Positions 8,471 through 15,202 of a stretch of 64,000 nt of DNA are shown piece by piece (the stretch's first letter is position 1; each line of letters begins with the position of its first letter). The translations under genes were made by a program, and so were the position numbers. This DNA is from a virus (lineage: Duplodnaviria; Heunggongvirae; Uroviricota; Caudoviricetes; Straboviridae). Under the pieces are notes generated by a model. It ran no database searches. It worked only from the letters and a program-made list of their open reading frames with translations, and was not told where the DNA came from. Location of the stretch: IMG/VR virus record IMGVR_UViG_638277085_000001, positions 163,399 to 227,398 of that record; one strand, given 5' to 3'.

Positions 8471-8516
8471 CGGGAGACACGGGAATCGAACCCATTGCCT
8501 TGACCACATATCTCCC
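8471..8516 (-). ncRNA. tRNA-like minihelix (acceptor stem + T-arm only, 46 nt) or internally deleted tRNA remnant
   Basis: The reverse complement reads GGGAGAT-[14 nt]-ATGGG TTCGATT CCCGT GTCTCCC G. This gives a 7-bp acceptor stem (one G.U) and a canonical T-arm, but no D or anticodon arm. Confidence 0.4.
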
Positions 8517-12578: not shown

Positions 12579-12706
12579 GTTACTGAGTGTTATTACTTGC
12601 GTCGTCCAGACCAGAGATACCAACTCTGAAAGGGAATCGAACCCCAAACATTTCTTTTCGTAAGAAGAATATTAGTAATTGTTTGCTGAAAACACTCTTC
12701 GGTATT

Positions 12707-14038: not shown

Positions 14039-14124
14039 TTGGTGGAGCGTAGAGGAATCGAACCTCTCTTCCCATTACGGGACACGGATTTACAGTCCGC
14101 TGCCGCACCTTGCGGCTTACGCTC
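14039..14124 (-). tRNA. tRNA-Tyr(GUA), type II; CCA encoded
   Basis: Acceptor GGAGCGT/ACGCTCC is perfect. Anticodon loop CTGTAAA. Variable stem TCCC/GGGA. Confidence 0.65.
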
Positions 14125-14130
14125 CAGAAT

Positions 14131-14624: not shown

Positions 14625-14660
14625 TCATTGTACATGATGTTTATATCGTTGTAAACATCT
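14625..14660 (-). promoter_or_regulatory. T4-early-like sigma70 promoter (minus strand: A-rich UP, -35 GTTTAC, 18-nt spacer, -10 TACAAT), copy 1 of a tandem pair
   Basis: The reverse complement reads aaaaaagatGTTTACaacgatataaacatcatgTACAATgaag. It sits immediately upstream (minus orientation) of the tRNA block starting at 14589. Confidence 0.5.
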
Positions 14661-14709
14661 TTTTTGAAAAACTTTTCATTAACTTTTGAATGATATTTCG
14701 CTTTTCTCT

Positions 14710-14745
14710 ATTGTACATGATGTTTATATCGTTGTAAACATCTTT
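14710..14745 (-). promoter_or_regulatory. T4-early-like promoter, copy 2 (35/36 identical to copy 1)
   Basis: Same GTTTAC-N18-TACAAT arrangement. The two copies form a direct repeat 80 bp apart. Confidence 0.5.
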
Positions 14746-14903
14746 TTAAATTTATTTTGAAGAACTTAACGTTTTCATTTTTCTATGTGTTAATCTTAAC
14801 ACTCGCTCAAGACATCTTAAACACTAATTTGTGAAAAAGTTCGTTAAATTCTATCATCACGACAGTACTTAACGAGATACGGTCCTAAGCGTATCAAATT
14901 AAT

Positions 14904-15028
14904 TCAGAATGGTGAGACTTGAACTCACTTCGAGTAATAGCGTAAACTAACAGTTGTTGCCAGAGGCTATCAATTATTCTCTACCGAGTATGTTGCAACT
15001 CTGCATTTCCCCATTTCTAGGCATTCTG
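14904..15028 (-). ncRNA. 125-nt tRNA-like element. The termini form a perfect 7-bp acceptor-like helix (CAGAATG/CATTCTG) stacked on a T-arm (GTGAG TTCAAGT CTCAC), with a roughly 90-nt non-cloverleaf body.
   Basis: Acceptor and T-arm complementarity seen directly. There is no D or anticodon arm and no encoded CCA. Confidence 0.35.
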
Positions 15029-15033
15029 AAATA

Positions 15034-15109
15034 TGGCACCCCACAGAAGATTCGAACTTCTAACCTGCGCCTTCGTAGGACGCTGCTCTTCCAATTGAGC
15101 TAGTAGGGC
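15034..15109 (-). tRNA. tRNA-Arg(ACG); CCA encoded
   Basis: D-arm GCTC-AATTGGAA-GAGC. Anticodon stem GCGTC/GGCGC, loop CTACGAA. Confidence 0.6.
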
Positions 15110-15116
15110 ATTAAAC

Positions 15117-15193
15117 TGGTCCGTGACAAGCGATTCGAACGCTTAACTTCTCCGCCCCAAACGGAGTACTCTACCAGATTGAGCTAGTCACGG
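15117..15193 (-). tRNA. tRNA-Pro(UGG), copy 1 (C1-G72); CCA encoded
   Basis: Acceptor CCGTGAC/GTCACGG is perfect. Anticodon stem CTCCG/CGGAG, loop TTTGGGG. Confidence 0.65.
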
Positions 15194-15202
15194 ATTTTAA
15201 AT

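What the first reader, a model, noticed from the sequence alone, without database searches (positions are those of the whole stretch)
14904..15028. 125-nt RNA with a perfect tRNA-like acceptor/T-arm terminus and a non-cloverleaf body
The ends of this element pair as CAGAATG/CATTCTG, stacked on a canonical-length T-arm (GTGAG TTCAAGT CTCAC; note the T-loop lacks the usual TTCGA). The roughly 90 nt in between do not form D or anticodon arms. It sits between two early promoters and the tRNA-Arg/Pro genes. It resembles the stable non-tRNA species (T4 RNA species 1 and 2) that are co-processed from the T4 tRNA precursors.
Basis: partly seen in the sequence, partly recalled or inferred. Interest (0 to 1): 0.5.

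Follow-up and report, generated by a model that had tools for sequence, protein, structure and literature searches.

The report
Orphan tRNA-like RNA gene in KVP40
Just after the arginine tRNA gene of Vibrio phage KVP40 lies an unannotated 125-base gene-like element whose two ends fold like the top half of a tRNA while its middle does not, so it is probably cut out by the tRNA-processing enzymes as a small RNA of unknown use, like the long-unexplained 'species 1' RNA of phage T4.

Summary
The window is Vibrio phage KVP40. CAGAAUG (15028-15022) pairs perfectly with CAUUCUG (14911-14905), stacked on a 5-bp T stem with a canonical UUCAAGU loop. The element starts 5 nt after the CCA of tRNA-Arg(ACG). 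A strict scan for this motif hits only the tRNA cluster.

The 93-nt body is not a cloverleaf by Rfam, by ARAGORN, or by an ARAGORN deletion scan. It is not detectably related to T4 rnaC or rnaD, to KVP40's long tRNA-like genes, or to anything in the collections searched.

The element is an insertion found only in KVP40-type phages: 13 records hold it at 98.6% identity or more, and in the 8 genomes read base by base it has no variable site. Related vibriophages have nothing, or an unrelated 58-nt filler, at the same spot. It lies between the last tRNA of a Pro-Pro-Arg unit and a conserved terminator-like hairpin.

Best reading (about 0.5): a co-transcribed small RNA excised by RNase P, an analogue but not a homologue of T4 RNAC. 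Main rival: a functionless tRNA-derived remnant. Expression and body structure are untested. Moderate interest.

The parts
14904..15028 (-). E1: the whole 125-nt tRNA-like element (5' end at 15028, discriminator A at 14904)
   Evidence: Sequence. Strict motif scan. Unannotated in NC_005083.2. No variable site in the 8 KVP40-type genomes read base by base. 13 records match at 98.6% identity or more.
15022..15028 (-). 5' strand of the acceptor-type stem, CAGAAUG (C1 to G7)
   Evidence: Perfect Watson-Crick complement of 14905-14911.
14905..14911 (-). 3' strand of the acceptor-type stem, CAUUCUG. It is followed by discriminator A (14904) and no CCA.
14912..14928 (-). T arm: GUGAG / UUCAAGU / CUCAC, directly abutting the 3' acceptor strand (12-bp coaxial minihelix)
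   Evidence: The loop fits the UUCRA consensus.
14929..15021 (-). 93-nt body. Predicted hairpins are H1 15021-15010 (CCUA GAAA UGGG), H2 15005-14982 and H3 14981-14932. None is supported by covariation or by stability.
   Evidence: Folds (z = -1.18). No tRNA arms found.
15029..15033 (-). 5-nt spacer UAUUU between the CCA of tRNA-Arg and E1. U-1 and U-2 can pair with A73 and A74.
   Evidence: Sequence.
15034..15276 (-). Upstream genes of the same presumed transcription unit: tRNA-Pro 15203-15276, tRNA-Pro 15117-15193, tRNA-Arg(ACG) 15034-15109
   Evidence: ARAGORN, Rfam, record annotation.
15297..15325 (-). Candidate promoter of the unit, read by eye: TTTAAG, 17 nt, TATGAT. It lies just downstream of the terminator at 15377-15357.
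   Evidence: Sequence. The promoter is below the scan's threshold, so it is an inference.
14832..14895 (-). Conserved two-hairpin block after E1: GAUACG..CGUAUC (14895-14876), a 15-pair hairpin (14875-14841), then ACUUUUUCA. This is the likely terminator of the unit.
   Evidence: Nearly invariant in 6 divergent phages. All 21 predicted pairs are kept, with 3 one-sided changes. In relatives it follows tRNA-Arg directly.
14627..14738 (-). Two tandem TTTACA-17-TACAAT promoters of the next tRNA group. They are not part of E1's unit.

Best explanation
E1 is a small tRNA-like RNA gene riding on the tRNA maturation pathway of phage KVP40.

Shown:
- It lies on the tRNA strand, 5 nt after tRNA-Arg, as the last element of a Pro-Pro-Arg unit and before a conserved terminator-like hairpin.
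- Its two ends form a perfect 7-bp acceptor-type stem stacked on a canonical T arm.
- Its body is not a tRNA.

Inferred mechanism:
- The unit is transcribed as one precursor.
- RNase P recognises the 12-bp acceptor/T-arm minihelix and cuts between U-1 and C1. The same cut releases tRNA-Arg with a 5-nt trailer that exonucleases can trim.
- The 3' end of E1 is made by a cut in the AU-rich AAUUAAUUU, followed by trimming back to A73.
- Since no CCA is encoded, the CCA-adding enzyme may add one.

The product would be a stable RNA of about 125-128 nt, with the tRNA 'top half' protecting both ends. What the RNA does afterwards is unknown. The likeliest options are a tRNA mimic that occupies enzymes reading the acceptor/T-arm half of tRNA, or an accessory RNA of small effect. 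It is an analogue of T4 RNAC (species 1), not a homologue.
For: - The motif is specific. All 16 strict hits lie on the tRNA strand inside the cluster, and random sequence rarely gives even one.
- Position and orientation fit co-transcription. A terminator-like block follows E1 and is conserved in 6 phages. The next promoters lie downstream.
- Model substrates made only of an acceptor stem, T stem and T loop are cleaved at the canonical site by E. coli RNase P RNA, with or without its protein (review PMC11143913, read).
- Decay is selective. The acceptor and T stems are perfect while no D or anticodon arm is detectable. This is not what uniform neutral decay of a tRNA gene would leave.
- E1 has 0 variable sites in 125 nt across 8 genomes. 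The adjacent tRNA-Arg has 8 variable sites (two alleles), and 2 of the 8 bases just downstream vary. E1 is found next to both tRNA-Arg alleles.
- The same design exists in T4 rnaC, with covariation support.
- It also exists in a second, conserved KVP40 RNA, X2 at 16562-16798, where 26 of 64 pairs covary.
Against: - There is no expression data of any kind.
- There is no covariation, because every copy read is identical.
- The body is no more stable than shuffled sequence.
- The element is dispensable for close relatives. ValKK3, VH7D, phi-ST2, nt-1, F86, D482 and QD01 lack it.
- It has no homologue in any collection searched: INPHARED phages, IMG/VR, JGI metagenomes and GTDB genomes.
- The invariance could reflect recent shared ancestry or a recombination block rather than selection.
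- The upstream promoter is only read by eye.
Confidence: 0.5

Rival explanations
1. E1 is a functionless remnant. It would be a tRNA gene, or a recombination product of one, whose middle was replaced or scrambled. It may still be transcribed and even trimmed, but the phage does not use it.
For: - E1 is present only in the KVP40 species-level group and absent from all other relatives.
- Its site is an indel hot spot with three states: empty, a 58-nt filler, or E1.
- The body has no significant structure.
- Residues A14, G18, G19 and A21 and a CUCGGUAGAG stretch look like debris of a D arm (read from the sequence, not statistically testable).
- The cluster holds other odd tRNA-like pieces: the 46-nt minihelix at 8472-8516 and X1 at 12579-12706.
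Against: - Perfect 7-bp and 5-bp stems and a canonical T loop survive while the other arms are erased beyond detection.
- E1 has zero substitutions, while the neighbouring functional tRNA-Arg differs at 8 sites among the same genomes.
- No donor tRNA or donor sequence could be found.
Confidence: 0.28
2. E1 acts in cis as a processing or stability element ('tRNA punctuation'). Its only job would be to supply an RNase P site that forms the 3' end of pre-tRNA-Arg and to cap the operon transcript. This resembles the t-elements of plant mitochondria.
For: - RNase P cleavage at C1 would leave tRNA-Arg with just a 5-nt trailer (sequence).
- A 46-nt acceptor/T-arm minihelix sits right after a coding region at 8472-8516 and is conserved in QD01 and nt-1. 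This suggests that such modules are used as punctuation in this phage group.
Against: - Relatives mature the same tRNA-Arg without E1, with the terminator block directly after CCA.
- A 93-nt body is not needed for that role.
Confidence: 0.12
3. E1 is a small non-autonomous mobile element (MITE-like) that landed next to tRNA-Arg.
For: - It has 9-bp terminal inverted repeats, UUCAGAAUG / CAUUCUGAA.
- A possible ATTT or TTT target duplication flanks it.
- A clean empty site exists in QD01 (CCA TTTGATACGC).
- It is found beside two different tRNA-Arg alleles.
Against: - It is single-copy in the window.
- Each genome searched holds one place only.
- There are no copies in any other collection.
- The 'inverted repeat' is fully explained as an acceptor stem next to a T arm.
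- The flanks are AT-rich, so a 3-4-nt repeat is expected by chance.
Confidence: 0.05

Closest known systems
Phage T4 RNAC (species 1 RNA, rnaC, 139 nt)
   Same: - An acceptor-type stem directly abutting a 5-bp T arm closes a non-tRNA body.
- It is the last gene of a tRNA transcription unit, downstream of a tRNA-Arg and before a terminator.
- Its function is unknown (PMC3014915, PMC9697503).
   Different: - There is no sequence or model-level similarity. Alignment is at chance, and the rnaC covariance model gives 10.8 bits, below two ordinary tRNAs.
- The rnaC stem has two conserved U.U mismatches. E1's stem is perfect.
- rnaC occurs in about 800 enterobacterial T-even phage records. E1 occurs in 13 KVP40-type records.
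- The neighbouring tRNA-Arg differs: UCU in the T4 group (annotated in phage G28) and ACG in KVP40.
Phage T4 RNAD (species 2 RNA, rnaD, 119 nt)
   Same: It has similar length and immediately follows tRNA-Arg.
   Different: rnaD has no UUCRA T-loop motif and no acceptor/T-arm closure (sequence). There is no sequence similarity.
Canonical tRNA (Rfam RF00005)
   Same: E1 has a 7-bp acceptor stem, a 5-bp T stem and a 7-nt UUCRANN loop. A discriminator base follows, and the gene lies in a tRNA cluster.
   Different: - No D arm or anticodon arm is found.
- E1 is 125 nt long.
- There is no Rfam hit even at E <= 10 and no ARAGORN call with or without internal deletions.
- No CCA is encoded, whereas 27 of the 32 T-arm/acceptor matches in the cluster are followed by CCA.
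Long tRNA-like genes of the KVP40 group (P3, P4, P5, E2, E3; 113-123 nt)
   Same: - They have similar length and lie on the same strand in the same cluster.
- They have acceptor and T-arm closure.
- Short motif echoes are shared (UGAUAG, GGCAAC, UUUACGC).
   Different: - Those five keep a canonical D arm and a covarying insertion hairpin, and they are conserved in ValKK3, nt-1, F86, D482 and QD01.
- E1 fails nhmmer.
- E1 fails the shuffle-controlled alignment: 159 of 500 shuffles score as well.
- E1 fails their covariance model: 7.7 bits, below every ordinary tRNA that scored in that search, against 29-48 bits for P3, P4 and P5.
tRNA-like domain of tmRNA
   Same: An acceptor stem plus T arm closes a larger RNA.
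   Different: - E1 is far too short.
- It has G3-C70 instead of the G3.U70 alanine identity pair (established knowledge of AlaRS recognition).
- ARAGORN finds no tmRNA, and there is no Rfam tmRNA hit.

Membership tests
Canonical tRNA (RF00005) | 7-bp acceptor stem closing the molecule | tested here: met
   CAGAAUG / CAUUCUG, 7 of 7 Watson-Crick pairs.
Canonical tRNA (RF00005) | T arm: 5-bp stem and 7-nt loop UUCRANN next to the 3' acceptor strand | tested here: met
   GUGAG UUCAAGU CUCAC.
Canonical tRNA (RF00005) | D arm, and an anticodon arm with a 7-nt loop | tested here: not met
   - At the D-stem positions only 2 of 4 bases can pair.
- The best anticodon-like hairpin has an 8-nt loop and no U33.
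- 851 deletion constructs gave no ARAGORN tRNA, and relaxed thresholds did no better than shuffled bodies.
Canonical tRNA (RF00005) | Covariance-model score at or above the gathering score (29 bits) | tested here: not met
   No tRNA-clan match even at E <= 10 on a 441-nt search.
T4 RNAC (species 1) family | Homology to rnaC in sequence and structure | tested here: not met
   Model R1, built from 5 homologues, gives 10.8 bits (E = 0.1), below tRNA-Ser at 15.8 bits and a 12.3-bit match over tRNA-Leu/Cys. Pairwise alignment is at chance.
T4 RNAC (species 1) family | Acceptor-type stem plus T arm enclosing a non-tRNA body | tested here: met
   E1. rnaC.
T4 RNAC (species 1) family | Last gene of a tRNA transcription unit, downstream of tRNA-Arg and upstream of a terminator | tested here: met
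T4 RNAC (species 1) family | Accumulates as a discrete stable RNA in infected cells | not testable with these tools
   No KVP40 small-RNA data were found.
KVP40-group long tRNA-like genes (E2/E3/P3-P5) | Scores above ordinary tRNAs with the family covariance model | tested here: not met
   Model R2 gives E1 7.7 bits (E = 1.3). P3, P5 and P4 get 47.5, 31.2 and 28.9 bits, and most ordinary tRNAs of the cluster get 8-25 bits.
KVP40-group long tRNA-like genes (E2/E3/P3-P5) | Insertion hairpin of 5-6 bp with loop YUGNYAAG, followed by YNGCA | tested here: inconclusive
   E1 has UUGAUAGC inside a 13-nt loop of an AGAG/CUCU stem, followed by GGCAAC. This is a resemblance by eye only. nhmmer and shuffle tests are negative.
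KVP40-group long tRNA-like genes (E2/E3/P3-P5) | Conserved across ValKK3, nt-1, F86, D482 and QD01 | tested here: not met
   E1 is absent from all of them.
tmRNA | G3.U70 pair, tag reading frame, pseudoknots, length over 230 nt | tested here: not met
   E1 has G3-C70 and is 125 nt long. ARAGORN and Rfam find no tmRNA.
MITE-like mobile element | Multiple dispersed copies | tested here: not met
   E1 is single-copy in the window and occupies one place per genome. No copy was found elsewhere.

The most novel reading that the evidence does not exclude
E1 may belong to a wider, undescribed habit of KVP40-type phages: making non-decoding RNAs that wear the acceptor/T-arm 'top half' of a tRNA. The other examples are X2 (237 nt, strongly covarying), a 46-nt minihelix, and five long tRNA-like genes with a conserved structured insert. 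Under this reading E1 is a clade-specific tRNA mimic. It would act as a decoy or sponge for a host factor that reads that half of tRNA, for example a tRNA-targeting defence nuclease, the CCA-adding enzyme or a 3' exonuclease. It would have been acquired as a counter-defence by phages of V. parahaemolyticus.
Probability: 0.1. Interest if true: 0.7.

Novelty: new member of a known kind. Interest (0 to 1): 0.35.

Why it matters
T4's species 1 and 2 RNAs have been known for about fifty years, and reviews still list their roles as unknown (PMC3014915, PMC9697503). E1 is an independent, non-homologous RNA with the same design, in the same genomic slot, in a distant T4 relative. This would suggest the design itself is selected: a tRNA top half used as a handle for excision and stability.

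KVP40 also offers natural 'with' and 'without' genomes for a direct test. In practice, E1 and several other RNAs in this cluster are missing from the reference annotation of a much-used model vibriophage.

Tried and rejected
1. tRNA with an intron or a single insertion. Rfam at E <= 10, ARAGORN with the intron option, and 851 deletion constructs were no better than shuffled bodies.
2. Degenerate member of the long tRNA-like family. nhmmer gave no hit, Smith-Waterman was matched by 159 of 500 shuffles, and covariance model R2 gave 7.7 bits.
3. Homologue of T4 rnaC or rnaD. Alignment was at chance, and covariance model R1 gave 10.8 bits.
4. Relation to the 58-nt filler of ValKK3-type phages at the same site: none (679 of 1000 shuffles score as well).
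5. Relation to X2: none.
6. Diverged copies elsewhere in the tRNA regions of ValKK3, nt-1, F86, D482, QD01 or T4: none.
7. Internal repeats or antisense targets in the window: only chance 9-11-mers.
8. Wider homologues:
   - Three E1 21-24-mers against IMG/VR gave 0 hits.
   - One 24-mer against JGI metagenomes gave 0 hits.
   - Two 21-24-mers against GTDB genomes gave 0 hits.
   - A conserved flank pattern, used to fish for new variants of the site, returned only VH7D and two unrelated contigs.
9. Coding potential: only ORFs of 21-49 aa with no support.
10. tmRNA-like reading: no G3.U70, and no ARAGORN or Rfam call.
11. Literature: no mention of this element or of KVP40 small RNAs in the held library. 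The KVP40 genome paper (PMC180978) is not held.
12. Two motif-expectation scripts timed out before a faster version ran.

Full report
IDENTITY OF THE WINDOW
A 701-nt stretch around the finding is 100% identical to Vibrio phage KVP40 (NC_005083.2, Schizotequatrovirus, a distant relative of T4). Window position equals record position minus 163398. The finding lies in the phage's large tRNA cluster. ARAGORN finds 28 tRNA genes, all on the minus strand. Rfam adds three 113-121-nt 'tRNAs' with large insertions, which the record calls pseudogenes. Nothing is annotated between tRNA-Leu-3 and tRNA-Arg-2, where the element lies.

THE OBSERVATION
Read on the minus strand, the element is:
CAGAAUG CCUAGAAAUGGGGAAAUGCAGAGUUGCAACAUACUCGGUAGAGAAUAAUUGAUAGCCUCUGGCAACAACUGUUAGUUUACGCUAUUACUCGAA GUGAG UUCAAGU CUCAC CAUUCUG A.

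- The seven terminal pairs and the five T-stem pairs are all Watson-Crick.
- The T stem abuts the 3' acceptor strand as in a tRNA.
- The loop UUCAAGU is a normal T loop.
- The element begins 5 nt (UAUUU) after the encoded CCA of tRNA-Arg(ACG).
- It ends with discriminator A followed by AUU, so no CCA is encoded. By contrast, 27 of the 32 T-arm/acceptor matches in the cluster are followed by CCA.

I scanned the whole window for a 5-bp T stem, a TTCRANN loop and a perfect 7-bp closing stem. This gives 16 hits, all on the minus strand within the cluster:
- ten ordinary tRNAs;
- this element;
- the three Rfam long tRNAs;
- two further long tRNA-like genes that neither program had found.

Only 6 of 100 Markov simulations of the window gave any hit. 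The feature is therefore real and not chance.

THE BODY
- Rfam gives no match to any family at E <= 10.
- ARAGORN finds no tRNA in the element or in any of 851 constructs with one internal segment removed. When its thresholds are lowered, the real sequence does no better than versions with a shuffled body.
- The minimum-energy fold puts three hairpins between the acceptor stem and the T arm, giving a five-way junction that looks loosely like a class II tRNA.
- A14, G18, G19 and A21 coincide with conserved D-loop positions.
- However, the body alone is no more stable than shuffles (z = -1.18, with 23 of 200 shuffles as good). The whole element reaches only z = -2.08.
- No open reading frame is credible.

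COMPARATIVE EVIDENCE
blastn finds the element in 13 records, all KVP40-type phages of V. parahaemolyticus and relatives, at 98.6-100% identity over a 141-nt query.

In the eight genomes I read base by base there is no substitution inside the 125 nt. Every difference lies in the 3' flank. In the same genomes the adjacent tRNA-Arg has eight variable sites forming two alleles. One allele matches the ValKK3/VH7D type, and the element sits beside both. This is mild evidence for constraint, or for recent spread.

All other relatives examined lack the element:
- In nt-1, F86, D482 and QD01 the CCA of tRNA-Arg is followed after 3 nt by a conserved block beginning GATACGC.
- In ValKK3, VH7D and phi-ST2 an unrelated 58-nt filler occupies the same spot (one search shows it is unrelated).

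So this site has three states, and the element is an insertion of about 135 nt. Because every copy is identical, covariation cannot be tested.

No E1 21-24-mer occurs in IMG/VR, JGI metagenomes or GTDB genomes. No diverged copy exists elsewhere in the tRNA regions of five relatives or of T4.

TRANSCRIPTIONAL SETTING
Reading along the minus strand:
- A terminator lies at 15377-15357.
- A TTTAAG-17-TATGAT promoter-like site lies at 15325-15297. I read this by eye, and it is below the scan's cut-off.
- Then come tRNA-Pro, tRNA-Pro, tRNA-Arg and the element.
- Next is a block of two hairpins followed by ACUUUUUCA (14895-14832). This block is almost invariant in six divergent phages and looks like the unit's terminator.
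- Last come the two strong TTTACA-17-TACAAT promoters of the next tRNA group.

The element is thus placed to be co-transcribed with three tRNAs as the last gene of the unit.

COMPARISON WITH T4
In T4 the order is tRNA-Arg, rnaD (119 nt), rnaC (139 nt), then a terminator.

I aligned T4 rnaC with four homologues down to 79% identity. The consensus structure is an acceptor-like stem (five pairs and two conserved U.U mismatches, with one pair covarying A-U to G-C), a long arm, a hairpin, and a T arm abutting the 3' strand. Eleven pairs have compensatory changes. rnaC therefore has the same design as E1. rnaD has no T-loop motif.

Homology is not supported. Pairwise alignments are at chance. The rnaC covariance model gives E1 10.8 bits, less than it gives two ordinary tRNAs. 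Reviews and a 2022 omics study still list RNAC and RNAD as RNAs of unknown function.

IS E1 A DECAYED MEMBER OF KVP40'S OWN LONG tRNA-LIKE FAMILY?
Five genes make up this family: P3 15906-16018, P4 17572-17692, P5 17703-17815, E2 17934-18056 and E3 18324-18443. They carry an insert of about 45-55 nt in the anticodon region, with a covarying hairpin (loop YUGNYAAG) and a YNGCA motif. They are conserved in ValKK3, nt-1, F86, D482 and QD01.

E1 shows a few motif echoes (UGAUAG, GGCAAC, UUUACGC), but three tests are negative:
- nhmmer profiles of the family do not hit it at E <= 100.
- Its best local alignment is matched by 159 of 500 shuffles.
- The family covariance model gives it 7.7 bits, below every ordinary tRNA that scored in that search, while P3, P5 and P4 get 47.5, 31.2 and 28.9 bits.

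I therefore do not file E1 there.

MECHANISM
An acceptor stem, T stem and T loop alone are an efficient RNase P substrate, cleaved at the canonical site (PMC11143913). The most economical reading is that the Pro-Pro-Arg-E1 precursor is cut by RNase P at each 5' end, including C1 of E1. That cut also leaves tRNA-Arg with a short trailer. The 3' end of E1 would then be trimmed to A73, and CCA might be added.

These steps are inferred, not shown. What the RNA does afterwards is unknown. The design would let it engage any factor that reads the top half of tRNA.

The main rival is a functionless remnant:
- In its favour are the narrow distribution, the unstructured body and the hot-spot location.
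- Against it are the selective survival of perfect acceptor and T stems, and the absence of any substitution next to a polymorphic tRNA gene.

A purely cis-acting processing role and a MITE-like origin are less likely, for the reasons given under the rival explanations.

VERDICT

This is a new, unannotated and so far orphan member of a known kind, the tRNA-like small RNAs of T4-type phage tRNA clusters. Interest is moderate (0.35). The other unannotated RNAs noticed in this cluster, which are conserved and supported by covariation, may deserve attention of their own.

Noticed in passing
window 15906-16018, 17572-17692, 17703-17815, 17934-18056, 18324-18443 (all minus strand): There are five long (113-123 nt) tRNA-like genes. 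Each has normal acceptor, D and T arms and a 45-55-nt insert in the anticodon region. The inserts share a 5-6-bp hairpin with loop YUGNYAAG, followed by YNGCA(A). The hairpin, acceptor and T stems covary among KVP40, ValKK3, nt-1, F86, D482 and QD01 (14 covarying pairs in the E2/E3 alignment). The last two (E2, E3) are missed by ARAGORN and Rfam and are unannotated in the KVP40 record. The first three are annotated as pseudogenes. The inserts are far too short for group I introns. I found no description in the held literature.
   Followed up: partly
window 16562-16798 (minus strand): X2 is a 237-nt RNA closed by an acceptor-type stem (GCCGCU.. / ..AGCGGC, then G, then CCA) and a T arm (UUCGAUU loop). 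A long-range helix lies next to the T arm, as in the tRNA-like domain plus P2 of tmRNA, but there is no G3.U70. It is conserved in five relatives with 26 of 64 predicted pairs covarying. There is no meaningful Rfam hit (only an 8-bit tmRNA fragment at E = 1.5) and no ARAGORN call, and it is unannotated.
   Followed up: partly
window 12579-12706 (minus strand), between tRNA-Gln and tRNA-Thr: X1 is a structured element of about 115 nt closed by GAGUGUU / AACACUC. It contains a UUCAGCAAAC motif and an anticodon-arm-like hairpin whose 'anticodon' varies between phages. These are followed by a T-arm-like hairpin and then directly by a D-arm-like hairpin, an order that differs from a normal tRNA. 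It is conserved in five relatives, with compensatory changes in both hairpins.
   Followed up: partly
window 8472-8516 (minus strand): A 46-nt minihelix, GGGAGAU ..14 nt.. AUGGG UUCGAUU CCCGU GUCUCCC G, has an acceptor stem and T arm only. It lies shortly after a stop codon. The copy in QD01 is identical, and so is the part of the nt-1 copy held in the locus, which ends inside the T loop.
   Followed up: partly
window 14832-14895 (minus strand): A two-hairpin block is nearly invariant across six divergent vibriophages. It lies directly after tRNA-Arg in relatives and after E1 in KVP40, and it ends in a U run. It is a likely terminator that the simple scan misses because its stem is AU-rich.
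   Followed up: partly
window 15034-15109 (tRNA-Arg) compared with loci L010-L016: Two alleles of tRNA-Arg(ACG) differ at 8 sites, including compensatory stem changes, and segregate among KVP40-type genomes. One allele matches the ValKK3/VH7D type. This indicates recombination within the tRNA cluster right next to the invariant E1.
   Followed up: partly
loci L003, L005, L006 (ValKK3, VH7D, phi-ST2), directly after tRNA-Arg: An unrelated 58-nt filler (GTTAGTGTTGTTTGATTGAAGCTCG...CTTCTACGA) occupies exactly the site where KVP40 has E1. This makes the site an indel hot spot with three states.
   Followed up: partly
window about 16545-16584 (minus strand): The annotated start of KVP40.0317 (window 16584) lies inside the 3' end of X2. 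An ATG at about 16545, preceded by AGAGGA, looks like the better start.
   Followed up: no
window 14040-14126 (minus strand): The same gene is called tRNA-Tyr(GTA) by ARAGORN and tRNA-Sec by Rfam (49.2 bits against a gathering score of 47). The KVP40 record calls it 'tRNA-Pseudo-2'.
   Followed up: no
locus L025 (Enterobacter phage vB_Ecl_id4496) 254-348, and L026 (Enterobacter phage MY742): The 3' part of the rnaC homologue is annotated there as a 95-nt 'tRNA-Met'. This shows how annotation pipelines mislabel such tRNA-like RNAs. In phage MY742 the rnaC T loop is UGCAUGC instead of UUCGAAU.
   Followed up: no
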